From a virus (lineage: Duplodnaviria > Heunggongvirae > Uroviricota > Caudoviricetes), in the IMG/VR virus record IMGVR_UViG_3300020049_005532, positions 22,466 through 86,465 of that record: DNA of 64,000 nt, one strand, 5' to 3'. Position numbers and translations under genes: made by a program. The notes below the pieces were generated by a model that was not told the origin of the DNA, searched no databases, and saw only the letters and a program-made list of their open reading frames with translations. This document shows, piece after piece, positions 7,957-58,055 of this stretch; within the stretch, counting starts at the first letter, position 1, and each line of letters opens with the position of its first letter.

Positions 7957-9186
7957 ATGGCAAGAGTACCTTGGCTTACAACGCAAGGACTAATTAATTC
8001 CGTCAAGCGCAAAATATCTATGCCGCTTGAGCAGGGAACTTTTAGTCTTGAAGACATGACTCATTTCCTTAATGAAGAAATGCAAATTTCTCAGGTTCCA
8101 TCTATTATGGAATTTTCTGAGGAATATTTTGTTTATAAAATTCGTGTCCCTCTAGTTGCAGGAAAAAGTCGTTATGACATCCCTGATCGTGCTATCGGCA
8201 TGAAGATACGAGATATCTTTATTGAAGACGAAAACGGCAATATGGGAGAAACCGCTCGTGTATCTCCTGATGAAAAAGCAACTTGGCAGTCCAACACTAC
8301 CAATTTTACACAGAATTATATCTACTATCTTGAAGGTAATCAAGTAGTATTTACTCCTACATCACAGTCCAATACGGGCTATGTTGTATTTTATATTTAC
8401 CTACGTCCAAATCAACTGGTTTTGGATACTCGTGCAGCTATTGCACAAAACTTTGTTAAAAAACTGACAGTAGAAACTAATCCAACTGCTGGTGATACAA
8501 TTACAATCAATGACGTTGTATATACCGCTGTGGCAAGTGGTGCAGTAGCTGGAGAATTTAACATTGGGGCATCTGCTTCGGCAACTGCATCTAATATCGC
8601 GTCAGCATTGCTTTCTCCGCTTACTGGATCAGCAACAACTGATGTCGTTAAGATTTCTTTTAGCGATGCAACTTATGAATTTGATTCGAGTTCGGCTAAC
8701 CTCGTTTTTGCCGATGAAATTGGTGTAAATTTTGACCAACTTCCAACTGAATGGGTTAATCCTGACACGCTTGAAACCGAATCTCTTTTCGGTCAAGGCG
8801 AATTAATTGACTTTCTTCAAACTAAACCTGGACATAGAACCTTTTCCTACGATCAGGAGCTGGTTGAAATTGACGGAACTGAGGGCTACTTTGATACAAT
8901 TCCGGAAGGATTTATTGTAGGAGATTATATTTGTTTAGCAAACGAATGTATCATACCGCAAATTCCTCCAGATCTTCATAACGGCCTTGCAGAACGCGCA
9001 GGCGCTCGCATTCTTTCGGCACTTGGCGACCAAGCCGGTCTACAAGCTTCTATGGCTAAAATTCAAGAAATTGACGGACGACAATCAACGCTTCTTAACA
9101 ACAGAGTCACTGGCGCGCCTATGAAGGTCACTAGCAAAAACTCAATGTTACGATCAAGCAAGCGTTGGAATCGACGTATTTACTAA
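7957..9186 (+). CDS. Virion protein (409 aa).
   Basis: Precedes the 1453-aa tail protein. No motif recognised. Confidence 0.45.
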   Translation: MARVPWLTTQGLINSVKRKISMPLEQGTFSLEDMTHFLNEEMQISQVPSIMEFSEEYFVYKIRVPLVAGKSRYDIPDRAIGMKIRDIFIEDENGNMGETARVSPDEKATWQSNTTNFTQNYIYYLEGNQVVFTPTSQSNTGYVVFYIYLRPNQLVLDTRAAIAQNFVKKLTVETNPTAGDTITINDVVYTAVASGAVAGEFNIGASASATASNIASALLSPLTGSATTDVVKISFSDATYEFDSSSANLVFADEIGVNFDQLPTEWVNPDTLETESLFGQGELIDFLQTKPGHRTFSYDQELVEIDGTEGYFDTIPEGFIVGDYICLANECIIPQIPPDLHNGLAERAGARILSALGDQAGLQASMAKIQEIDGRQSTLLNNRVTGAPMKVTSKNSMLRSSKRWNRRIY

Positions 9187-23092: not shown

Positions 23093-23485
23093 TTATTCAT
23101 CTATAATATCATAACTAATTGATTTGTCAAGCTTTTTCTTGTCTCTGTTCATTTTTCTTTCAGTATTTTCAACTAAAGTCTTGACAGAGTGACAAGAGGA
23201 ACATACCACCTGATACCCTTCGGCCTTGCAAAATAGCCGATTTATAAACCCTTCCCAACCGTCCCAGCCGGTAACTGGAATTATAGGGTCCTTGTGATCT
23301 AATTGAATGTCTTTTTTGGAAAAAGTGCCTTGGCACGAAGCGCACTTATATATCCCTCTTGAGAGTCTAGCGTCGGTCATTGCCTGATTGCGAGGCGGCC
23401 ATCTGTAACTAGCTCTCCTCAATGAAGCAATGATAAACGCTTTTAATATCTCTTCGTGGGATTTAACCTTCTTCGGTTTCTTCAT
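23093..23485 (-). CDS. HNH endonuclease.
   Basis: CASCQG...LDHKDPI...GG...N...LFC..CH.VKT is a classic HNH core. Confidence 0.65.
   Translation of the reverse strand: MKKPKKVKSHEEILKAFIIASLRRASYRWPPRNQAMTDARLSRGIYKCASCQGTFSKKDIQLDHKDPIIPVTGWDGWEGFINRLFCKAEGYQVVCSSCHSVKTLVENTERKMNRDKKKLDKSISYDIIDE
23103..23130 (-). promoter_or_regulatory. Sigma70-like promoter TTGACA-N16-TATTAT reading into the protease gene.
   Basis: RC of 23125-23130 is TTGACA and RC of 23103-23108 is TATTAT. RBS AAAGGAA lies before the ATG at 23069. Confidence 0.35.
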
Positions 23486-26820: not shown

Positions 26821-26999
26821 GAGATTTCTTCCCAACCACCATCATTGAGCAATTCTTCTTCGGAATAACCCATGCCAGCAGGCCCTCCATCCCAAATCGA
26901 GTAGTCAAAATCAATTGGGATAGAAAAATTTACCAAACAAATTCTATATGTTAACTCATAATTTTTATTGGTAAAAGTGCTATTTTTAAAGATCTTCAT
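26817..26999 (-). CDS. Small hypothetical protein (60 aa).
   Basis: ORF track. Confidence 0.25.
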   Translation of the reverse strand: MKIFKNSTFTNKNYELTYRICLVNFSIPIDFDYSIWDGGPAGMGYSEEELLNDGGWEEIS

Positions 27000-27571
27000 G
27001 TTATCTCATCAATCAAATTTAAATCCAAAGCTTGTTCAGGCGTTAAAATAGTATCAAACTTTAATAATTCCTTAACCTGACGCTTGGTATATTTAGGCTG
27101 TTTTACCTGGATCTTTCTCAAGATAATGTCCTCAAATATCAGCTCGTCCTTTTCGTGTTGTTCCATCCAGCGTTTATTGATTTCTGGATGGTTCATCTCT
27201 AAGCCCATTTGACCAGTATGAAGCATCATTCTTGAGTTTTTGGACATGACTCTGTGATCGGCAGCTTGCAGTATCCAAGCAGCAATACTCATTACCGCGC
27301 CATAAGCTTTAATCGTCACATGGTTCTTACATTCGGTAATGGCGTCATAGATGGCCATGCCAGATCCCTGATCGCCTCCTAGCGAGTTTAAAAGGATTGT
27401 AATGGGCTTTCCTTCGGCTTGTGAAGAATGGTCTAGGACATGTAATGCCTTAATGACTTTAGCCGCAAGCTCTGCTGTCACTTCTTCGTGCATAATGTCA
27501 ATAGTTCTTGTTGGCACATAGATACCATGATCATAAAATTGGTCAACAAAGTCTTTATCGCTGCGTTTCAT
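26996..27571 (-). CDS. ClpP-like serine protease subunit (copy 1).
   Basis: ILLNSLGGDQGSGMAIYDAI...VTIKAYGAVMSIAAWILQAAD...RVMSKNSRMMLHTGQ parallels ClpP YINSPGG..GMSIYDTM..GQAASMGAFLL..NSRVMIHQP. Confidence 0.8.
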   Translation of the reverse strand: MKRSDKDFVDQFYDHGIYVPTRTIDIMHEEVTAELAAKVIKALHVLDHSSQAEGKPITILLNSLGGDQGSGMAIYDAITECKNHVTIKAYGAVMSIAAWILQAADHRVMSKNSRMMLHTGQMGLEMNHPEINKRWMEQHEKDELIFEDIILRKIQVKQPKYTKRQVKELLKFDTILTPEQALDLNLIDEIT

Positions 27572-29939: not shown

Positions 29940-30593
29940 TTACTTCTTTTTCTTTGATTTTTTCTCTGGACCTTGGACGGGTTTCTTTTCAAATGTAACA
30001 AGTTGCGAAGACAGACGAATTTCTTGTTGCATCAATCGAGGATAGCCAATATGATCGACAAGCCCAAGTTTTAGTGCGTCTTCTGGAGTAAGATAAAGGT
30101 CGCCATTTGAACGGGACTTCATTTTTGTTTCCCAGAATGCCGGAGTTTTATTTGTGTCTTCTGCAAAGTTTCCAATAACAAATTTATTCATTCTGGCAGT
30201 CTCTTCAATAGAAATTTGCATATCGTTAAGTTTGCCCACTGTGCCGCTCGATACTTCATGCAGCATTACAGACGTGCTAGGCGAAGCAAATCGCAGACCT
30301 TTCGATCCGGCTGCTAGCAAGAATGCGCCAGCTGACATGGCTTTACCGTAAGCAATAGTAGCAACTTGTTTATTAGAAGACTTAATTAGATCTCGCATGG
30401 CCATCATATTGTGAGCAGACCCGCCATAAGAACTAATCACGATTTGAATAGTTCCAACTTCTGGATTCTGTTCTGCATCAATAAATCGCTTAGTAAAATC
30501 TTTAAGTCCACTATCACTAAAACTACTAACCCAGATTGGTCCTGTTTCAGATAGTTCCAATCCCTCGATCTGTGGCATCATCATTGTCTTCAT
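29940..30593 (-). CDS. ClpP-like serine protease subunit (copy 2).
   Basis: IVISSYGGSAHNMMAMRDLI...ATIAYGKAMSAGAFLLAAGSKGLRFASPSTSVMLHE parallels ClpP [31 protein letters not shown]. Confidence 0.8.
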   Translation of the reverse strand: MKTMMMPQIEGLELSETGPIWVSSFSDSGLKDFTKRFIDAEQNPEVGTIQIVISSYGGSAHNMMAMRDLIKSSNKQVATIAYGKAMSAGAFLLAAGSKGLRFASPSTSVMLHEVSSGTVGKLNDMQISIEETARMNKFVIGNFAEDTNKTPAFWETKMKSRSNGDLYLTPEDALKLGLVDHIGYPRLMQQEIRLSSQLVTFEKKPVQGPEKKSKKKK

Positions 30594-44401: not shown

Positions 44402-45181
44402 CTATTTTGAAGTTTTATTTTTTTCATCAAAATTCAAATTTAAAAAAGGTAAAGCGTTTGTTCCCATAACAGTTGGCAGTACACCCGACCAACGCTCCAA
44501 AGCTTTCATTTGGAGAACTTCTGGTGTGATAGTAGATTTCATCAAACGTTGTGATTCAGCTTGACCTTTAGCTCGCTCAACATCAGCATTAGCCTGTTGT
44601 GTTGCCTTTTGTGCAACATATTCAGCTTGCTTTGCTTCTTGTTCAGCGATCTGCTTACGTTCAATTGCATCAGTAAACTCTTTAGAGAATGTCAAATTTA
44701 CAATCGACACATCTTGAAGAGTTACACCGTAATTTGCAAGACGAGTGCGAAGAAGTGTATCAATTTGCGTTTTAAGCTCTGTTCGCTTAGTCAAAATCTC
44801 TTCCGCTGTCATATTAGCTGTTGCCGCTTTAAGCGACTCACTAACTGCCGGAGAGATAACCTTGCGAAGAACCGAATCTTCGTCACCAGTATTTTTAAAT
44901 ACATTCATAACTTGATCTGGTGTGATAGACCAGTTCAAAGCTACTTCAGTTTTAATTTCTTGCATATCTTTTGATGCAGCCGACGTTTCAACATCAGAGC
45001 GCTGTGTTTGGATGTTTAGCGTTTTTGACCCATGAAAGAAGGGAATCCAAAGATAAGCTCCTGGTTCTCGAACTTCTGAACCAACCTTGCCAAGAGAGAT
45101 ACTAAATCCTCGTTCGCCAGGACCTACTACCGTACAAGCTGACATAAATACTGCAATTGCTGCGATAAAAATACTTTTCAT
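44402..45181 (-). CDS. SPFH/band-7 (prohibitin/HflC-like) lipoprotein.
   Basis: Lipobox ...VFMSAC. SPFH-like core LNIQTQRSDVETSAASKDMQEI...ALNWSI, followed by a coiled-coil AEQEAKQAEYVAQKATQQANADVERAKGQAE. Confidence 0.7.
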   Translation of the reverse strand: MKSIFIAAIAVFMSACTVVGPGERGFSISLGKVGSEVREPGAYLWIPFFHGSKTLNIQTQRSDVETSAASKDMQEIKTEVALNWSITPDQVMNVFKNTGDEDSVLRKVISPAVSESLKAATANMTAEEILTKRTELKTQIDTLLRTRLANYGVTLQDVSIVNLTFSKEFTDAIERKQIAEQEAKQAEYVAQKATQQANADVERAKGQAESQRLMKSTITPEVLQMKALERWSGVLPTVMGTNALPFLNLNFDEKNKTSK

Positions 45182-49147: not shown

Positions 49148-50759
49148 AAACTCCTCCCAAGCACTCTAGCTCTTTTTCTTCAAAAACTTTACCTTCTTGA
49201 GCTAAAGCTTCTTCTAGCGACACCCGTGTTAATGGCTGTCCGCCGCGACACCCGTCAGGATAGACGGTAAATCCGCGAAGACGTTTCCCGTAATTTAAAA
49301 GAATATCAGCTTTTTGTTTTACGTTAGTGTCGTTGTTTTCTTCAGATCCCCAGCTTGGCATATTGCATGTTGAACTAATTGCCATATCTACATAGTTCTG
49401 AACATCAGCTTGGAACTTAACTCGCTGTCTAAATGACAAGTCATAGCTGTCCTGGATATCTTCAATTTTAACTCCTTGGTCCATAAGACGCTTCACTGCG
49501 CCATCTACAACATATTGAGCGAGCCATTTACCGTCTTTAAAATACCGACGAACATATGCCTTACAAAACAAAGGCTCTAGTCCAGTCGTCGTTTCGGCAA
49601 TAATACCAATTGTTCCAGTTGGTGCGATTGCTCTGACACCTTTTGGCACCGCAACATTTAATTGTTTAGCTCCAACAAATGCCGCAGCATCCGACTCTTG
49701 CTCGTAAACAGATAACCATTTATGTAGCTCCGGAACAGCTTCGTACTTATGTCCACGAGTCATAAGCCATTCGTGCATACCACCAAGACCTAATCCAATT
49801 CGATTATTCTTTGTTCCAATCTCTCTAATCTTTTCACTTGGGACGTCGGAGTAAATGCTTCCGCAAAGTAAGAACAAAGTAGAAAGTTTCACTACATCAG
49901 CAAACTCTTTGCGATCTTTACAACGATTCATCCAGACAGTTCCAAGATTACACTTATCGCTATCATCTTCGCTTACAACTTCCGTGCAGGCGTTTCTCAG
50001 GCTCTCATTATCTTTACGAAAGTTAAATGCCATGCCTGGTTCAGCTGTAGAAAATGCTTGACGACAGTTTTCATACCAAACTTTCTTGGCGTGTTCGTGC
50101 TTAGGATGATTTTCATCTTCAATTGCAATAAAAAATTCTGTGTTATAATTAACCGAGATGTTAGTTAGCTCCATAGGAAGCGGAAAATTAAAATCGTTTT
50201 CTTTTGCTTTTCGCAAAGCTTCGCTATGATCTTTCAATTTAAGAAACTGAAACACATCGCCGTGATCCCATTGCAGACCTGCCCAAATTGCAGACCTTTG
50301 TTGGCCACCTTGCATGATGTATCTTCCTGATTCGTTCACCATATTCATGAGAGCGATAGGTCCCGTTGATGTCCCTCCGGTTCTACCGATAGGGGCACCA
50401 TTGGCTCTTAGTTTTGAATAATCAAAACCAATTCCGCCGCCAGTCATTAGTGCAGCAGTTGCCTTGTGAACAGCGTCTGCCCAACCTTCGCGACTGTCTT
50501 CCGCTCTAAACAAAAAGCAGTTATTGACTTGATGAAAAGCGCGTCCAGAAGAATATAAATATCTTCCTCCTGGAATAAATTTTCGATCAATCATGTATTG
50601 TTTAATTTTATTTTTTTCTTTGTTACCGAGAAGCTGACCGCAAACGGCATTAACCACTCGATTGCAAGTGTCTGACCAAGTTTCGGTTCCTCCCATTGAA
50701 TACTTTTGAATATAGATATCTTGTGCGAATTTAGACCCAAATACATCGTACTTTGACAT
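49137..50759 (-). CDS. Ribonucleotide reductase catalytic subunit (compact, monomeric-type, 540 aa). No NrdB-like partner in the window.
   Basis: GGGIGFDYSKLRANGAPI. Thiyl-radical loop NACTEV parallels SNLCTEI. PTGTIGIIAETTTGLEP. C-terminal CLGGVCG. Confidence 0.75.
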   Translation of the reverse strand: MSKYDVFGSKFAQDIYIQKYSMGGTETWSDTCNRVVNAVCGQLLGNKEKNKIKQYMIDRKFIPGGRYLYSSGRAFHQVNNCFLFRAEDSREGWADAVHKATAALMTGGGIGFDYSKLRANGAPIGRTGGTSTGPIALMNMVNESGRYIMQGGQQRSAIWAGLQWDHGDVFQFLKLKDHSEALRKAKENDFNFPLPMELTNISVNYNTEFFIAIEDENHPKHEHAKKVWYENCRQAFSTAEPGMAFNFRKDNESLRNACTEVVSEDDSDKCNLGTVWMNRCKDRKEFADVVKLSTLFLLCGSIYSDVPSEKIREIGTKNNRIGLGLGGMHEWLMTRGHKYEAVPELHKWLSVYEQESDAAAFVGAKQLNVAVPKGVRAIAPTGTIGIIAETTTGLEPLFCKAYVRRYFKDGKWLAQYVVDGAVKRLMDQGVKIEDIQDSYDLSFRQRVKFQADVQNYVDMAISSTCNMPSWGSEENNDTNVKQKADILLNYGKRLRGFTVYPDGCRGGQPLTRVSLEEALAQEGKVFEEKELECLGGVCGI

Positions 50760-50766
50760 GTTGCTC

Positions 50767-50931
50767 CTATTTAAATATTATTGTGTGATAATCAAATTTT
50801 TCAGGCTTACCAGAAAGAACTATTGGTTTACCTCTCTCTGGTAAAGAAAACAATATACACGTCTTTTCATCTAAAGTCAAGTAATAAACGTCGGCTTCTA
50901 TTAACAAAGAATGTCTCTTTGATAAAATCAT
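50767..50931 (-). CDS. Small protein S1 (54 aa, MILSKRHSLLIEADVYYLTLDEKTCILF...).
   Basis: Hand translation. RBS overlaps its stop just before the RNR ATG. Confidence 0.4.
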   Translation of the reverse strand: MILSKRHSLLIEADVYYLTLDEKTCILFSLPERGKPIVLSGKPEKFDYHTIIFK

Positions 50932-51091
50932 AAATCAATTTTGCAAATGTAATATTTGTATCTTTTTGTAAATACTATAGATTCTAGTTTTTCTATATCA
51001 AATCTAAGACTGAATGCCGAATAATCTTCATTCTGAGCTAAAATAAAATATCTAGCCGTGGAAGAACCGACAGATGAATAACAATACTCTC

Positions 51092-51241
51092 CTATCGTAA
51101 TTTAATCCTTGTGCTAAGTCTGGTATCTTCATCTGTCCATTCGGCTAATGAGATCTCCCAATTTCCGTAAGATTTATAGTTGATAATTATGAAACCATCA
51201 AAAACCAAGTAATAGGTTCCGGCGTGTTTATAAAGAGTCAC
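51092..51241 (-). CDS. Small protein B (49 aa, GTG start; VTLYKHAGTYYLVFDGFIIINYKSYGNWEISL...).
   Basis: Hand translation. GTGA overlap with the upstream stop. Confidence 0.35.
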   Translation of the reverse strand: MTLYKHAGTYYLVFDGFIIINYKSYGNWEISLAEWTDEDTRLSTRIKLR

Positions 51242-51399
51242 ATTGGCACCATATCTTTGACGTAGTGAACGCCAAAGACCTCTGCGATTTCTCCATTATA
51301 GCAAAATGCAAGCATAAAATCATCCGATAAATAAAAAGCTGTACCAAAATCAATACTAGTACTAACTTTGTATAAAGGATATTTTCCGTTCCGGACCAT
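51238..51399 (-). CDS. Small protein C (53 aa, MVRNGKYPLYKV...CYNGEIAEVFGVHY...).
   Basis: Hand translation. TGATG overlap. YNGE core. Confidence 0.45.
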   Translation of the reverse strand: MVRNGKYPLYKVSTSIDFGTAFYLSDDFMLAFCYNGEIAEVFGVHYVKDMVPM

Positions 51400-51566
51400 C
51401 AACATTCGGCTGTTAACCCTTCTAATGATTTGACATTAACAAGACTTGCGTCAATTTCTCCGTTATATCGAAAAAAGATAGCAATATTACCACAAATCAG
51501 TGTCGTCCCCCAGTAGTCACTAAGACTATCCTTAGTAAGGAAATGACCATTCCATATTCTAAACAT
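51399..51566 (-). CDS. Small protein D (55 aa, MFRIWNGHF...FFRYNGEIDASLVNV...).
   Basis: Hand translation. TAAATG junction. YNGE core. Confidence 0.45.
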   Translation of the reverse strand: MFRIWNGHFLTKDSLSDYWGTTLICGNIAIFFRYNGEIDASLVNVKSLEGLTAEC

Positions 51567-51743
51567 TTAAAACTCTCCAGGTTCAAACATGTCTGCATTA
51601 TCAGATTTATGAAATGTTGTTAAATGAAAGATAGCTCCATCGTAATGAAAAGTTATGCCACTCTCTTCATACTCTGAAACAAAAATAACATATCTATAGC
51701 CCAGGCGCATTAGTTGACTATAATTTTTCCACTGATAAATCAT
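51567..51743 (-). CDS. Small protein E (58 aa, MIYQWKNYSQLMRLGYRYVIFVSEYEESGITFHYDGAIFHL...).
   Basis: Hand translation. ATGA-coupled. Confidence 0.45.
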   Translation of the reverse strand: MIYQWKNYSQLMRLGYRYVIFVSEYEESGITFHYDGAIFHLTTFHKSDNADMFEPGEF

Positions 51744-51931
51744 TTAAAAGTTGCTCTCCTAAAGACCATTCTATTAGTTCCAAGTAGATCATTAGCGTCC
51801 TTATAGGGAACTAATCCTATATAACCATCACTAAAAAAACATAAAAGTGATATATCCCAATCATTTAAAGATAAAGGAATTAGGTACCTAGTTTCTTGAC
51901 GAAGATGATTATCAACAAATTCAATAAACAT
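51740..51931 (-). CDS. Small protein F (63 aa from the internal Met MFIEFVDNH...; the track ORF extends to 51967).
   Basis: ORF track plus internal ATG. Confidence 0.4.
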   Translation of the reverse strand: MFIEFVDNHLRQETRYLIPLSLNDWDISLLCFFSDGYIGLVPYKDANDLLGTNRMVFRRATFK

Positions 51932-52106
51932 TAGTAAAATCCTCGGTCCAAAGGTCGTCAGTCCCATCGTCTTCTTTGTATAAACGAAAATCTATATTCC
52001 CACCGTAAGTAAATCTAACATGACAAGAATCTAACTCTAAAATAATCGGGTAATTCCAACTATCTTCGGTTCTAATTAGTGAAAAACCAACCCATCTCTT
52101 TATCAT
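51921..52106 (-). CDS. Small protein G (61 aa, MIKRWVGFSLIRTEDSWNYPIILELDSCHVRFTYGGNIDFRL...).
   Basis: ORF track. Confidence 0.45.
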   Translation of the reverse strand: MIKRWVGFSLIRTEDSWNYPIILELDSCHVRFTYGGNIDFRLYKEDDGTDDLWTEDFTNVY

Positions 52107-52264
52107 GTCACCAAACCTCCATAAAAGGAAAAGCCGACGATTCTACCAACAGCGGGACTGTCTCCATGTCTCGTATCAAAGACGATGAACCTGTCGTCAG
52201 TAATAAAAAACGCATACAGCCCATTGCGCAACGGACTTGAATATAACAAAGAGATTCTTTCCAT
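52103..52264 (-). CDS. Small protein H (53 aa, MERISLLYSSPLRNGLYAFFITDDRFIVFDTRHGDSP...).
   Basis: Hand translation. RBS GAGGTAG. ATGA-coupled to G. Confidence 0.45.
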   Translation of the reverse strand: MERISLLYSSPLRNGLYAFFITDDRFIVFDTRHGDSPAVGRIVGFSFYGGLVT

Positions 52265-52307
52265 ACACAAACACTACCTCACTTCTTCGAAAAAGTCAAT
52301 AAAATAC

Positions 52308-52335
52308 TTGACAATTCATCAAAAAGGTATATACT
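52308..52335 (+). promoter_or_regulatory. Near-consensus sigma70 promoter TTGACA-N16-TATACT on the + strand, inside an otherwise - strand region.
   Basis: TTGACA at 52308-52313 and TATACT at 52330-52335. Confidence 0.5.
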
Positions 52336-52339
52336 GGAC

Positions 52340-52751
52340 AAGTCGATGCGATTCTAACAGACGTTAAACTAGGAGATACCACAGAACCAATACTGTGCAT
52401 GGAACGATCTAAGTCAAGGGCAGCAAAGCAAGTTAAGCTGGACTGGTATTTACAGAACAAACCGCCAACTAGTCAACCTGATCGTTTCATTGGACATACA
52501 CTAAAAGAGTGCGCTACACAAGGATAAGTGCCCGACGAGAACATAGGGACATCGGACTTTGTAAATAGACCGAATACTACTTATTTAATGAACCTGAAAC
52601 GGTTAATGATTCTTGGTAGTGACAGTTAAGCTAGTGGTAGATAAAGCCTGATGCTATTGCTTATCGAATACAGGTAAGTAAGGTAAGGGCGGTCTATTGT
52701 CTTGAGTGCACTCTGACCTCGGATAAATGAAAACCCCAGATTCCTCTAGGG
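52340..52751 (+). ncRNA. Candidate non-coding transcript: about 410 nt with no convincing ORF on either strand, downstream of the + strand promoter.
   Basis: Absence of ORFs in a genome that is otherwise ATGA-coupled. Contains the palindrome GAGTGCACTC and a direct repeat CTCTAGGG x2. No tRNA-like motif was recognised. Confidence 0.3.
52399..52527 (+). CDS. Possible 42-aa ORF (MERSKSRAAKQVKLDWYLQNKPPTSQPDRFIGHTLKECATQG) downstream of the + promoter. Weak support.
   Basis: The AGGAGA upstream is about 22 nt from the ATG, so there is no well-spaced RBS. Reported only as a candidate. Confidence 0.15.
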   Translation: MERSKSRAAKQVKLDWYLQNKPPTSQPDRFIGHTLKECATQG

Positions 52752-52913
52752 TTACATCTTTCTGAATTTGTCTTCTGACTCTAGGGATGTGATGTGGTGG
52801 GTGCTTCCTATGTAGTTGCAGGTGCCGTCAGTTTTAAACACAACACCGCTGTATGGTGAGAGTGGTATCACTAAGACCCATATGTAGTGGTCGTTTGGTC
52901 TTATGAGAATCAT
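52752..52913 (-). CDS. Small protein I (53 aa, MILIRPNDHYIWVLVIPLSPYSGVVFKTDGTCNYIGSTHH...).
   Basis: Hand translation. ATGA-coupled to J. Confidence 0.45.
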   Translation of the reverse strand: MILIRPNDHYIWVLVIPLSPYSGVVFKTDGTCNYIGSTHHITSLESEDKFRKM

Positions 52914-53068
52914 GACATTTCCTCATAGCCTTGCTCCAAAAGAATGAACACAGGAACTCGATAACTAACGTCAATGCTTCCGTCAACATGAAACTTTATG
53001 ATCGCGCCTCCAAGATCAATAAAGCTATTAATGCGAAACTTATGGTTCTTTAGATTAGTGTAAATCAT
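52910..53068 (-). CDS. Small protein J (52 aa, MIYTNLKNHKFRINSFIDLGGAIIKFHVDGSIDVSYRVPVFILLEQGYEEMS).
   Basis: Hand translation. ATGA-coupled. C-terminal YEEMS. Confidence 0.45.
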   Translation of the reverse strand: MIYTNLKNHKFRINSFIDLGGAIIKFHVDGSIDVSYRVPVFILLEQGYEEMS

Positions 53069-53226
53069 GGCATTTCCTTGTAAGTTAAGAGACAGGGACC
53101 TCTTTCTCCGTTATAGCCCAACTCGACACCGTATTTACAGAAACCTATGGTGACAGTTTGTAATCTAATAAAAAGAATATAGGAGTGACCTATGTTAATA
53201 TTAGAACTTCTTCTAATATACATCAT
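53065..53226 (-). CDS. Small protein K (53 aa, MMYIRRSSNINIGHSYILFIRLQTVTIGFCKYGVELGYNGERGPCLLTYKEMP).
   Basis: Hand translation. YNGE core. C-terminal KEMP. Confidence 0.45.
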   Translation of the reverse strand: MMYIRRSSNINIGHSYILFIRLQTVTIGFCKYGVELGYNGERGPCLLTYKEMP

Positions 53227-53396
53227 GGCATTTCCTCGTAAACACTGACAGCACGATCAAAAAGTTCAGTTGGCATACCCCAAAGACAGTTTATATCACC
53301 ATCGCTTCTAAACATGATCATAACTCCATCCAATACCAACACTGTATGATTATATGATACATAATCAGGGTCATTGTTCTTATAAATTTTAAACAT
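53223..53396 (-). CDS. Small protein L (57 aa, MFKIYKNNDPDYVSYNHTVLVLDGVMIMFRSDGDINCLWGMPTELFDRAVSVYEEMP).
   Basis: Hand translation. TAATG overlap with the 267-aa gene. C-terminal YEEMP. Confidence 0.45.
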   Translation of the reverse strand: MFKIYKNNDPDYVSYNHTVLVLDGVMIMFRSDGDINCLWGMPTELFDRAVSVYEEMP

Positions 53397-54199
53397 TAAA
53401 ACCTATCCTTGACTTTAAGTTCATCAAACAACTGACCTATTGGTGGCGCTCCTTCAGCCGATCTATGCTTCCATTTAATTGCGCTCCAGAAGTCCTTAAT
53501 GCCTTTAGAACGAAGCGACACTGTCTTAGTCTCATCTGTATAGCCAGCTGTAGGACGGCGCTTGTAGAGCCATCTAGAGACCATCGCAACAGGAGTATCA
53601 AGTGAGTCGTAAGCCTGGATCATACCGAGAACAAAGTTATCGTCATCGCTATGGTCTGGATTGTAATAACCAACAATATTTGTTATTACTGCATTGCCCA
53701 GCATAAATAGATCGGTAACTGTCAGCAGTGGCCTAAAGAAATTCCATCCCCAATGCTTAGAGATCATGGCGTATGAGCGTATATACTGTCCCCAGTGCTC
53801 TGGACTGGCAAAGTCTACCTGATACCAAGGCTTAGGCACTGGATTGTCGCCTGGCCAAATGTGGTAACTATTTTGATAGAAGCCTAATCTTTTAACCTGT
53901 TCTTTAAGCTGACGGGTTAATAGATCTTTACGTCCAGCATAGCCTGTCCAAATAACCATAGACATAATCTGATCACGGCTAGTTGATTTAGGGTCTGATA
54001 TCCAAGAATCGGTATAAGGATATCTAACCCAGATGCCAGGACTAATCTCGGCAGCTTCTGGATTTAACTTAAACTTAACTTGACTATGGCGTCGCTGGAT
54101 AACATCAACAAGGGTTGTCTTCTGAAGGGCATCCCCGCCATCGCCATTTCCCATACAAACAAATCCATTAAAAATAAAGTCAATCATAGTTGTCTCCAA
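53396..54199 (-). CDS. Hypothetical protein (267 aa), W/Y-rich.
   Basis: ORF track. Confidence 0.45.
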   Translation of the reverse strand: METTMIDFIFNGFVCMGNGDGGDALQKTTLVDVIQRRHSQVKFKLNPEAAEISPGIWVRYPYTDSWISDPKSTSRDQIMSMVIWTGYAGRKDLLTRQLKEQVKRLGFYQNSYHIWPGDNPVPKPWYQVDFASPEHWGQYIRSYAMISKHWGWNFFRPLLTVTDLFMLGNAVITNIVGYYNPDHSDDDNFVLGMIQAYDSLDTPVAMVSRWLYKRRPTAGYTDETKTVSLRSKGIKDFWSAIKWKHRSAEGAPPIGQLFDELKVKDRF

Positions 54200-54357
54200 G
54201 GACTAAAGTCCATTCCTTCACAACATTCCTCAGTGCTAATTTTTCCAGTACCATGAAAATCAATCGTAACATCTTTAGATATAAAGATAAAATATCTCGG
54301 ACTGTTTGTGAAAAAAGGGCTGTATCGACTAAAATCGGTCCAAATAGTGCCAATCAT
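54184..54357 (-). CDS. Small protein M (57 aa, MIGTIWTDFSRYSPFFTNSPRYFIFISKDVTIDFHGTGK...).
   Basis: Internal Met of the track ORF. ATGA-coupled to N. Confidence 0.45.
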   Translation of the reverse strand: MIGTIWTDFSRYSPFFTNSPRYFIFISKDVTIDFHGTGKISTEECCEGMDFSPWRQL

Positions 54358-54527
54358 AATTTTTTCCAATTTGACCAATGAGGTATAGGTTGATTCATAC
54401 AAAGTGACGGCTTAAAATTGTAAGCTTTTTCAAAATCTAAAACAGTATAGCCTTGTTGGTCCTGTTCTTCAAAAAGAACAAGGAAATACCAATCTTTAGA
54501 ATCTACTCCCCAAATAGTACCAATCAT
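54354..54527 (-). CDS. Small protein N (57 aa, MIGTIWGVDSKDWYFLVLFEEQDQQGYTVLDF...).
   Basis: Hand translation. Same MIGTIW N-terminus as M. Confidence 0.45.
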   Translation of the reverse strand: MIGTIWGVDSKDWYFLVLFEEQDQQGYTVLDFEKAYNFKPSLCMNQPIPHWSNWKKL

Positions 54528-57518: not shown

Positions 57519-57669
57519 TTTCTATTGCTCCTAAGTAAATGAACTCGATCAATTCTTCAATGCTTCGTTCTCTAGTTATTTTACCGGATTGGGCTTCTTT
57601 GTCAATAGCCCAAATAATTTTTGTTGGAATTTCTATTGTGACAGTTTGTTTTACGTCTTCTGGTTTCAA
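57463..57669 (-). CDS. Hypothetical protein (68 aa).
   Basis: ORF track. Confidence 0.3.
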   Translation of the reverse strand: MKPEDVKQTVTIEIPTKIIWAIDKEAQSGKITRERSIEELIEFIYLGAIENVETNSLREDSEQVPDEA

Positions 57670-58055
57670 AAATACTCCTCGACATTAATCGTTTCATCGT
57701 CTTGACGATAGTTTGTAAACAGCTGTTCTCCTTTGGCAATTGGTCGCAGTGTATAAAACTCCATCGTCCTTGCTACTGGGTTCAATCGGTAGCCAACGTT
57801 TGGTGTCTCGCTGTGATTATAAAGCTCTCCTAGCCCCATTACAAGACAATCTTGTCCTTTATCCTTATCAAAGACAAAAGTATAAAACTTAAGAGAAGTT
57901 TGATTGACAAGCTTTGTGTCTTCGGCTGACAAAGGAAGAACGGGATTAACTTCTAAGCATTGACCTTCGTCTATATAGTCGCTAGCCACCACACTACGTC
58001 CAAAAGTCGGCAAATTCTCTACTGTCAAAGTGTTTAGTCTGTAACCTTGGTTCAT
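57666..58055 (-). CDS. Hypothetical protein (129 aa).
   Basis: ORF track. Confidence 0.35.
   Translation of the reverse strand: MNQGYRLNTLTVENLPTFGRSVVASDYIDEGQCLEVNPVLPLSAEDTKLVNQTSLKFYTFVFDKDKGQDCLVMGLGELYNHSETPNVGYRLNPVARTMEFYTLRPIAKGEQLFTNYRQDDETINVEEYF

What the first reader, a model, noticed from the sequence alone, without database searches (positions are those of the whole stretch)
52265..52751. About 490 nt ORF-free island with an opposite-strand consensus sigma70 promoter inside the small-gene array
The whole 43-kb module is transcribed on the - strand with genes overlapping. Here a ~490-nt stretch has no convincing ORF on either strand.

Its upstream edge carries TTGACA-16nt-TATACT at 52308-52335, oriented on the + strand, antisense to the entire module. 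The downstream transcript would contain a 10-nt palindrome GAGTGCACTC and a CTCTAGGG direct repeat.

This is a candidate phage sRNA or antisense regulator, or a bidirectional early-promoter hub. A 42-aa + strand ORF exists at 52399-52527 but lacks a well-spaced RBS.
Basis: seen in the sequence. Interest (0 to 1): 0.65.

Follow-up and report, generated by a model that had tools for sequence, protein, structure and literature searches.

The report
Unclassified structured RNA gene in phage
The ORF-free island most likely encodes a roughly 380-420 nt folded noncoding RNA with its own strong early promoter; a distantly related phage keeps the same fold although most of the sequence has diverged, and the RNA matches no known RNA family.

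Summary
Window 52265-52751 is the largest non-coding gap in the window. TTGACA-16-TATACT (52308-52335, + strand) is an 11/12 sigma-70 match of the same type as the phage's own - strand promoters.

The island is more than a promoter. Homology to a related uncultured phage (L003-L006, Logan contigs) starts at G52342, the start site predicted 7 nt after the -10. Only the first ~60 nt are similar in sequence, yet independent folds of the two RNAs share one architecture over about 360 nt.

- Domain 1: 31 pairs, 98% paired in both sequences, 14 changed on both sides; 0-2 when the partner columns are slid.
- Fold similarity is strand-specific: z = -5.1 on the + strand, -0.5 on the reverse complement.
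- Candidate pseudoknots also covary.

There is no Rfam, tRNA or tmRNA match, no conserved ORF and no iterons. In L003 the RNA runs the same way as its neighbouring genes, so antisense control is not its conserved role.

Best reading: a new early-expressed structured ncRNA that acts in trans; its partner is unknown. The limits are two independent sequences (plus one partial) and no expression data.

The parts
52308..52335 (+). Sigma-70-type promoter: -35 TTGACA (52308-52313), 16-nt spacer, -10 TATACT (52330-52335)
   Evidence: 11 of 12. Promoter-like sites in front of the phage's - strand genes have the same form. Function has not been tested.
52342..52760 (+). Predicted noncoding RNA gene. The 5' end is G52342, 7 nt after the -10. 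The folded core runs 52342-52717. The 3' end is uncertain: at or after the 52732-52753 hairpin.
   Evidence: Homology to L003 7410..(-) starts exactly at 52342. The architecture is shared in independent folds and is specific to the + strand.
52354..52374 (+). Invariant 21-mer CTAACAGACGTTAAACTAGGA. It contains the small hairpin H1 (UAAC-AGAC-GUUA, RNA positions 14-25) and a conserved single-stranded linker.
   Evidence: Identical in the window and in L003. It is the only part with significant sequence similarity.
52380..52397 (+). Hairpin H2: stem CACAG/CUGUG, invariant loop AACCAAUA
   Evidence: L003 has CUCGU-AACCAAUA-ACGAG. Three of 5 pairs are changed on both sides.
52399..52490 (+). Helix P3 (arms 52399-52409 and 52480-52490). 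It encloses hairpin Ha (52421-52440) and hairpin H3 (52441-52474).
   Evidence: (inverted repeat I2). P3 has 11 pairs, 6 changed on both sides. Ha has 3 of 4 changed on both sides, H3 2 of 7.
52499..52636 (+). Domain 2: long interrupted helix P5 (arms 52499-52525 and 52609-52636) closing a junction with hairpins Hb, Hc and H4
   Evidence: Independent folds give the same layout in L003. Tree distance is 90 against 145 +/- 20 in shuffles. A model built from the window alone finds the L003 counterpart at the expected place, but weakly: 12.3 bits, E about 0.8.
52591..52604 (+). Hairpin H4: AACC-UGAAAC-GGUU
   Evidence: L003 has AUAC-UGAAAC-GUAU: conserved loop, 2 compensatory pairs.
52637..52697 (+). 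Domain 3: long imperfect hairpin
   Evidence: Present at the equivalent place in L003 (RNA positions 309-362). In the partial copy L069, 2 of 3 substitutions there turn G.U into A-U.
52447..52567 (+). Candidate kissing contact between the H3 loop (52447-52456) and the Hc loop (52558-52567)
   Evidence: Window UAUUUACAGA/UUUGUAAAUA; L003 GUUAGC/GCUAAC at equivalent positions, 2 compensatory pairs. Such coincidences are in excess over shuffles.
52564..52698 (+). Candidate pseudoknot helix (arms 52564-52572 and 52690-52698), which crosses P5
   Evidence: Nine perfect pairs (inverted repeat I4). L003 has AAAGCACCU/GGGUGCUUU at equivalent positions. It competes with another conserved pairing, 52461-52466 with 52688-52693.
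52704..52717 (+). 3' strand of the terminal closing helix P1, pairing with 52342-52354. It includes the palindrome GAGTGCACTC.
   Evidence: Full-length folds close both RNAs with a 5'/3' helix: window 1-13/363-376, L003 1-9/500-507. Palindrome.
52732..52753 (.). Hairpin overlapping the stop codon of gene 52752-52913. It is a good intrinsic terminator for the - strand and a weaker one for the + strand (C.A mismatch, poor U tract).
   Evidence: (scored on the - strand only).
52399..52527 (+). 42-aa ORF inside the RNA; judged not to be a gene
   Evidence: No Pfam or PHROG hit. The frame is not conserved in L003.

Best explanation
The island is a free-standing gene for a structured noncoding RNA on the + strand. 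The steps below are marked as shown, partly shown or inferred.

1. Inferred from sequence: host sigma-70 RNA polymerase starts at G52342 from the early-type promoter at 52308-52335.
2. Shown by comparison: the transcript folds into three domains. Domain 1 has H1, H2 and a P3 junction holding Ha and H3. Domain 2 is a long helix closing a junction with Hb, Hc and H4. Domain 3 is a long hairpin.
3. Partly shown: a terminal 5'/3' helix probably closes the fold, and domains 1 and 2 are probably tied together by a loop-loop contact and further pseudoknots.
4. Inferred: the core is about 376 nt and the RNA ends near the 52732-52753 hairpin, giving about 420 nt.
5. Shown: what selection has kept invariant is a 21-nt stretch near the 5' end and the hairpin loops AACCAAUA and UGAAAC. 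Almost every stem has been rewritten by compensatory changes.
6. Inferred mechanism: the RNA works in trans as a stable folded particle. Its invariant single-stranded segments and loops would be the recognition surface for a partner, either a protein or another nucleic acid, during early infection. This fits its place in the fast-evolving small-gene array, which I take to be early genes. It would not work by antisense pairing with neighbouring genes.

My estimates: a real + strand structured RNA gene, about 0.7-0.75. A trans-acting partner-binding role, about 0.4. A catalytic RNA, about 0.15.
For: - Promoter: 11/12 and of the phage's own type.
- Homology start: similarity with L003-L006, whose neighbouring proteins are 59-70% identical, begins exactly at the predicted +1. 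It is 84.6% over 52 nt; upstream sequence is unrelated.
- Domain 1 pairs: structure taken from the window alone, L003 aligned to it by a covariance model (71.9 bits). 31 pairs, 98.4% of cells paired, 14 pairs changed on both sides. Slid controls give 25-38% paired and 0-2 such pairs.
- Fold similarity: independent minimum-energy folds give the same helices in the same order over about 360 nt. Tree-edit distance is 178 against 297 +/- 22 in shuffles (0 of 150). Domain 2 alone, which has no sequence similarity, gives 90 against 145 +/- 20.
- Strand: the similarity is strand-specific, z = -5.1 on the + strand and -0.5 on the reverse complement. The helices hold 9 G.U cells and no A.C cells.
- Domain 2 model: built from the window only, its best L003 hit is exactly the expected segment.
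- Coincident stems: 10 stems of 6 bp or more sit at equivalent positions, against 3.1 +/- 1.7 expected; long-range ones are 8 against 2.3 +/- 1.5.
- Not coding: a 1-nt indel and a stop codon break every candidate frame, and there are no protein-level matches.
- Independent module: in L003 the RNA sits in a different gene context and in the opposite orientation relative to its neighbours.
Against: - Only two independent sequences, plus one 96%-identical partial copy (L069), so there is no statistically proper covariation test such as R-scape.
- No transcript data.
- Thermodynamic stability is unremarkable: z = -2.1 for the window RNA and -0.3 for L003.
- The domain 2 model hit is weak (E about 0.8).
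- The alignments used for pair counting are fitted to the structure.
- About 3 of the 10 coincident stems are expected by chance, and several candidate pseudoknots exclude one another or domain 3.
- The + strand terminator is poor.
- The L003 copy has no promoter of its own and directly follows a stop codon, so there it could be a 3'-UTR element.
- No further homologue turned up in IMG/VR, the JGI metagenomes, the GTDB genomes, INPHARED or about 830 kb of related phage loci.
- The function is pure inference.
Confidence: 0.7

Rival explanations
1. It is a cis-antisense regulator or a transcriptional-interference unit. The + strand promoter fires against the - strand early transcripts, and the RNA, or the act of transcribing it, modulates the neighbouring small genes.
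For: In the window the promoter is antisense to the whole 43-kb module. The RNA gene sits between a - strand terminator (52753..52732) and the next - strand gene, so any read-through - strand transcript would be complementary to it.
Against: The transcribed region overlaps no coding sequence unless it reads through the hairpin. In L003 the homologous RNA is co-directional with its flanking genes. What is conserved is a fold, not complementarity to a neighbour. The flanking genes are unrelated between the two phages.
Confidence: 0.1
2. It is a cis-acting structured element of an mRNA, such as a 3'-UTR stabiliser, a processing site or a self-cleaving ribozyme, rather than a free-standing RNA gene. 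The window promoter would then be secondary.
For: In L003 the element starts 2 nt after a stop codon, with no promoter of its own. The nearest strong promoter (8385..8357) heads the upstream operon. Small ribozymes are common in phage intergenic regions (general knowledge).
Against: In the window it has a dedicated consensus promoter placed so that +1 coincides with the first conserved base, and no + strand gene lies upstream or downstream. No self-cleaving ribozyme family of Rfam matches even at E up to 10.
Confidence: 0.1
3. It is a DNA-level element, such as a replication origin, packaging site or recombination site, whose hairpins act in DNA.
For: It is a large non-coding island with a promoter and several inverted repeats. 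Origins of some phages combine a promoter with a structured region (general knowledge of the T4 and T7 origins).
Against: Fold conservation is confined to one strand and uses G.U pairs. There are no iterons or tandem repeats. The island is not AT-rich: GC is 0.41-0.42 against 0.38 for the module. Cumulative GC skew does not turn here. No integrase was found among the Pfam hits to the window's ORFs of at least 120 aa; only the 25 most frequent of 33 families were listed.
Confidence: 0.05
4. It is non-functional spacer DNA or a decayed gene that happens to contain a promoter-like site, or it is the mRNA of the 42-aa ORF.
For: Promoter-like sites are over-represented in this AT-rich region. The ORF 52399-52527 has an AGGAG (52371-52375) that hairpin H2 could bring close to its AUG.
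Against: The fold is conserved across a phage whose flanking genes share no detectable similarity. The ORF is broken in L003. There is no protein-level similarity anywhere.
Confidence: 0.05

Closest known systems
GOLLD and ROOL, large ornate noncoding RNAs often carried by phages and prophages
   Same: A large, multi-domain, probably pseudoknotted RNA of unknown function encoded by a phage. The fold is conserved while the sequence diverges.
   Different: No match to their Rfam models. It is smaller, about 380-420 nt against about 580 and 800. No tRNA genes lie nearby. It is known from only two phage lineages. Nothing is known about oligomerisation.
phi29-family packaging RNA (pRNA)
   Same: A phage-encoded structured RNA made from an early sigma-70-type promoter, in a phage with podovirus-like structural genes and a family B DNA polymerase. 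Its hairpin loop contains AACC, which I recall is also the kissing-loop motif of pRNA.
   Different: No match to the Rfam pRNA model. It is about twice the size. The window spans at least 64 kb, with no evidence of phi29-like genome organisation. Its position relative to a genome end is unknown.
Small phage antisense RNAs (lambda OOP, P22 sar, P1/P7 c4)
   Same: An RNA gene driven by its own promoter and oriented against the surrounding genes in the window.
   Different: Those RNAs are 60-100 nt and act by complementarity to an overlapping or nearby target. This one is about 400 nt, overlaps no gene, and is co-directional with its neighbours in L003.
Large catalytic RNAs (RNase P RNA, group I introns)
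   Same: Similar size, a multi-domain fold with a closing helix and long-range pairings, and a few short sequence resemblances that I recalled from memory.
   Different: No Rfam RNase P or group I match even at E up to 10 on the RNA alone. It is not inserted in a host gene. The short resemblances are not conserved in L003.

Membership tests
Any described RNA family (Rfam 15, 4227 models) | Score at or near the family's covariance-model threshold | tested here: not met
   No hit at gathering score in the whole window. At E up to 10 only chance snoRNA-type hits appeared, on 1 kb, on the RNA alone and on the L003 RNA.
tRNA / tmRNA | Cloverleaf or tRNA-like domain with a tag reading frame | tested here: not met
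   ARAGORN finds no tRNA or tmRNA gene in the window.
Sigma-70 promoter | -35 TTGACA and -10 TATAAT hexamers 16-18 nt apart | tested here: met
   TTGACA-16-TATACT, 11 of 12, the same type as sites in front of the phage's - strand genes. Activity cannot be tested here.
Cis-antisense regulatory RNA | The transcript overlaps its target gene on the opposite strand, and this arrangement is conserved | tested here: not met
   The RNA lies between genes. In L003 it is co-directional with its neighbours.
Group I intron | Inserted in a host gene between exons, with a conserved P3-P9 core detectable by RF00028 | tested here: not met
   It has its own promoter, is antisense to the flanking ORFs and has no + strand exons. 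No Rfam hit.
RNase P RNA | P4 helix formed by conserved regions CR-I and CR-V, and a match to the RNase P models | tested here: not met
   No RNase P model hit at E up to 10. The short motif resemblances came from memory only and are absent from L003.
Guide RNA of TnpB or IscB (omega RNA) | Lies next to or overlaps a tnpB or iscB gene at a transposon end | tested here: not met
   No OrfB_IS605 hit among the listed Pfam families of the window's large ORFs (25 of 33 families shown). The TnpB genes seen in related contigs L009 and L010 have no similarity to the island.
GOLLD / ROOL | Match to their covariance models; frequent association with tRNA clusters | tested here: not met
   No hit and no tRNAs in the window. 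The functional analogy, a large ornate phage RNA, stays open.
Conserved structured RNA (generic criterion) | Base pairs kept through compensatory changes, more than in controls, on one strand | tested here: met
   The caveat is that there are only two independent sequences and the alignment is fitted to the structure.
Intrinsic terminator at the RNA's 3' end | GC-rich hairpin followed by a U tract on the transcribed strand | tested here: inconclusive
   The hairpin 52732-52753 passes the scan on the - strand only. On the + strand it has a C.A mismatch and a weak U tract.

The most novel reading that the evidence does not exclude
The island encodes the founding member of a new class of large, pseudoknotted phage RNAs. 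It would be a compact folded particle of about 380 nt, made immediately after infection, that either is catalytic or serves as a scaffold or decoy for a host or phage factor, for example in host takeover or anti-defence. It would be carried as a shuffled accessory module in the fast-evolving early region.
Probability: 0.4. Interest if true: 0.8.

Novelty: new variant of a known kind. Interest (0 to 1): 0.62.

Why it matters
Few bacterial or phage RNAs above 300 nt with complex conserved folds are known. Those with known functions are mostly ribozymes or central ribonucleoprotein components. Others, such as GOLLD, ROOL and OLE, remain unexplained.

A new example is useful here for three reasons. 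It sits behind a textbook early promoter. It lies inside the small-gene array where phages are thought to keep host-takeover and anti-defence functions (general knowledge). Its sequence has been almost completely rewritten while the helices stayed in place.

That gives a concrete, synthesisable target of about 420 nt for structure probing, partner pull-downs and cleavage assays. It also shows that ORF-free gaps in arrays of tiny phage genes can hide RNA genes that annotation pipelines and Rfam miss.

Tried and rejected
**Searches for more homologues, all negative**
- blastn of the island and of the L003 RNA against 50,697 phage genomes.
- Exact and gapped motif scans of IMG/VR (the 10 hits are a protein-coding gene and chance matches).
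- JGI metagenomes (3 chance hits).
- GTDB genomes (2 chance hits).
- Covariance models R1 and R3 over 41 IMG/VR loci that share the RNR (68-80% identity) and all other fetched loci.

**Other routes that led nowhere**
- A chimeric query of the four small flanking proteins found nothing.
- Contigs carrying homologues of the 267-aa protein and of the phosphoesterase yielded the RNA only in L003-L006 and, truncated, in L069.

**Readings considered and rejected**
- Decayed gene: tblastx finds nothing.
- The 54-aa - strand ORF 52296-52460: it shares only the 7-residue translation of the invariant 21-mer with L003, and the frame is broken by an indel.
- Relic of an IS605/TnpB element: no similarity to the TnpB loci L009 and L010.
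- RNase P RNA or group I intron: leads from memory, but no model hit.
- Replication origin: no repeats and no skew change.

**Technical dead ends**
- MAFFT would not keep a manual N-padded structural alignment, so pair counts for domain 2 rest on my own script.
- The first tree-distance script timed out.

Full report
**1. The observation**

The window is a novel phage. It has no nucleotide match in 50,697 phage records. Structural genes lie on the + strand up to about 20.7 kb. A long - strand module follows, carrying family B polymerase, DnaB, ThyA, class II RNR, ligases and other replication genes.

Between the - strand genes 52103-52264 and 52752-52913 lie about 487 nt with only short, unsupported ORFs. 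None has a Pfam or PHROG hit and there is no protein-level similarity to anything fetched. The island holds the longest stretch of the window free of ORFs of 40 aa or more in all six frames.

The + strand site TTGACA-16-TATACT at 52308-52335 is real and scores 11 of 12. The promoter-like sites in front of the module's own - strand genes are of the same type: TTGACA, a 16-17 nt spacer, then TATACT or TATTAT. So this looks like one of the phage's host-polymerase promoters turned the other way.

The palindrome GAGTGCACTC (52704-52713) and the two CTCTAGGG copies (52744 and 52779) exist but are minor. One CTCTAGGG copy is an arm of a hairpin at 52732-52753. That hairpin overlaps the stop codon of the upstream gene and scores as a - strand intrinsic terminator.

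**2. A relative**

The 267-aa protein next to the island (53396-54199) has only seven homologues among 5.8 billion proteins. Contigs carrying the 60%-identical one (L003-L006, Logan assemblies) have a 535-nt stretch with no called gene.

blastn links window 52342-52392 (+) to L003 7410-7359 (-) at 84.6% identity. The match begins at G52342, which is 7 nt after the -10 hexamer and therefore the predicted start site. Upstream sequence is unrelated.

Sequence similarity is significant only over the first 60 nt. A 1-nt indel and a stop codon exclude a shared reading frame, including the 42-aa ORF.

In L003 the element follows a stop codon by 2 nt and points the same way as its flanking small genes. 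In the window it points against them, and the flanking genes of the two phages are unrelated. The element is therefore a module of its own.

**3. A conserved fold**

Minimum-energy folds computed separately for the two RNAs give the same series of helices (RNA numbering, 1 = window 52342).

| Element | Window RNA | L003 RNA |
|---|---|---|
| H1 | 14-17/22-25 | 15-18/23-26 |
| H2 | 39-43/52-56 | 40-44/53-57 |
| P3 | 58-68/139-149 | 59-68/140-149 |
| Ha | 80-83/96-99 | 82-85/96-99 |
| H3 | 100-106/127-133 | 100-106/126-132 |
| P5 (three-part helix) | 158-184/268-295 | 158-187/274-304 |
| H4 | 250-263 | 257-270 |
| Domain 3 hairpin | 296-356 | 309-362 |
| Terminal 5'/3' helix | 1-13/363-376 | 1-9/500-507 |

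P3 encloses Ha and H3. P5 closes a junction that holds Hb, Hc and H4.

The evidence for this fold is as follows.

- **Domain 1 pair counts.** A covariance model built from the window's domain 1 alone aligns L003 at 71.9 bits. On that alignment 31 pairs are 98.4% paired, and 14 pairs are changed on both sides. Sliding the partner columns gives 25-38% paired and 0-2 such pairs.
- **Overall fold similarity.** Tree-edit distance between the two folds is 178 against 297 +/- 22 for dinucleotide shuffles (0 of 150). Domain 2 alone, which has no sequence similarity, gives 90 against 145 +/- 20.
- **Domain 2 model.** A model from the window's domain 2 alone places its best L003 hit exactly where expected. 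The score is weak: 12.3 bits, E about 0.8.
- **Conserved loops.** The loops are conserved while the stems covary: AACCAAUA in H2, UGAAAC in H4, and a GA.C..GAGAA..AUA pattern in Hb.
- **A third, partial copy.** L069 is 95.7% identical to L003. Two of its three substitutions in the domain 3 hairpin turn G.U into A-U.

**4. Strand and long-range contacts**

The similarity of folds is specific to the + strand: z = -5.1, against -0.5 for the reverse complements. Without the sequence-conserved first 60 nt the values are -4.9 and -1.7. The proposed helices contain 9 G.U cells and no A.C cells. This argues for RNA made from the strand downstream of the promoter. It argues against a DNA element or a - strand RNA.

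Ten stems of 6 bp or more lie at equivalent positions in the two RNAs, against 3.1 +/- 1.7 in shuffles (0 of 300 and 1 of 300). Eight of them are long-range, against 2.3 +/- 1.5. They include:

- a loop-loop contact between H3 and Hc, with two compensatory pairs;
- a helix at 52564-52572/52690-52698, with 9 perfect pairs, which crosses P5.

Some of these pairings compete with one another and with domain 3. Two sequences cannot resolve which ones form.

**5. What it is not**

- It matches no Rfam family at gathering score in the window, or at E up to 10 on the RNA alone, in either phage.
- It is not a tRNA or tmRNA.
- It has no tandem repeats or iterons, and cumulative GC skew does not turn here.
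- No reverse transcriptase, TnpB or integrase appears among the listed Pfam hits to the window's large ORFs (25 of 33 families shown).
- The TnpB genes in related contigs L009 and L010 are separate insertions with no similarity to the island.
- Resemblances to RNase P or group I motifs were recalled from memory, are not conserved in L003, and are not backed by any model hit.
- No - strand promoter of 9/12 or better lies in the island, so a bidirectional promoter hub is not supported.

**6. Mechanism**

Shown: a consensus early-type promoter, conservation that starts at the predicted +1, and a + strand-specific fold kept through compensatory change across about 360 nt.

Inferred: transcription by host polymerase early in infection; a compact particle closed by a terminal helix; and action in trans through the invariant 21-mer (52354-52374) and the invariant loops, which would bind a protein or nucleic-acid partner.

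The opposite orientation in L003 speaks against antisense control as the conserved role. The patchy occurrence among close relatives, and the position inside a fast-evolving array of paralogous genes of about 55 aa, fit an accessory host-takeover or anti-defence function. That last point is conjecture.

**7. Limits**

- There are only two independent sequences, and the alignments are fitted to the structure.
- Thermodynamic z-scores are ordinary.
- The + strand terminator is poor.
- The L003 copy has no promoter of its own.
- There are no expression data.
- Every wider search for further members was negative.

**8. Verdict**

The best reading is a previously undescribed, large, structured phage RNA gene.

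Noticed in passing
window 50753-50781 (+): A second + strand 11/12 sigma-70 site (TTGACA-17-TATTAT), also antisense to the module. It overlaps the start of the RNR gene (50759). It could be chance or another antisense transcript.
   Followed up: no
window 50767-53396 and 54354-54527 (-): A tandem array of at least 12 overlapping genes of 49-61 aa that align as divergent paralogues. The shared pattern is M-I...Y...hydrophobic run...I-x-F-x-Y-x-G-x-I. None has a Pfam or PHROG hit or a homologue in related contigs. The RNA gene interrupts this array.
   Followed up: partly
window 52732-52786: The - strand terminator hairpin overlaps the stop codon of 52752-52913. A second CTCTAGGG copy 35 nt away, inside that gene, could form an alternative hairpin with the same CCCCAGA arm. 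This might act as an attenuator-like switch on the - strand.
   Followed up: partly
L009 2271-3491 (+) and L010 1748-2776 (-): Two near-identical contigs from one JGI sample carry a TnpB gene (OrfB_IS605 plus Cas12f1-like_TNB) in opposite orientations and at different spots next to the homologue of the 267-aa gene. This suggests an active IS605-type element in relatives of this phage.
   Followed up: partly
window, - strand promoters at 23130, 26820, 33479, 39908, 40772, 48807: The intergenic promoter-like sites of the module form a recognisable family: TTGACA(a/t)(a/t)t ... ttatg(a/g)TAT(A/T)(C/A)T. They could serve to map the early transcription units of this phage.
   Followed up: partly
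window 26996-27571, 29940-30593, 44402-45181, 57666-58055; one ORF not localised: An unusual gene set for a phage: two ClpP-like proteases, an SPFH/Band 7 protein, a SET-domain protein, and one ORF with a dATP/dGTP diphosphohydrolase N-terminal domain (PF18909). From memory, PF18909 is the MazZ-type domain of phages with modified DNA bases; I did not check this.
   Followed up: partly
L007 16575-19382: In a more distant relative (an 88-kb Logan contig) the class I RNR large subunit carries an intein with a LAGLIDADG domain.
   Followed up: no
window 50934-51237: The second-largest ORF-poor gap of the window lies just upstream of the RNR. It has two - strand promoter-like sites, at 51001 and 50880. 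It is probably the promoter region of the nucleotide-metabolism genes.
   Followed up: no
window 52371-52401: An AGGAG lies 23 nt upstream of the AUG of the 42-aa ORF. Hairpin H2 between them would bring the two to normal spacing, as I recall for T4 gene 38. This is not conserved in L003, so it is probably fortuitous.
   Followed up: partly
L011 709-727, L012 396-414: Two of the three metagenome contigs that hold the 19-mer TAACAGACGTTAAACTAGG by apparent chance also share AAAGACAT a few bases downstream. They show no other similarity to the RNA and have no Rfam hit.
   Followed up: partly
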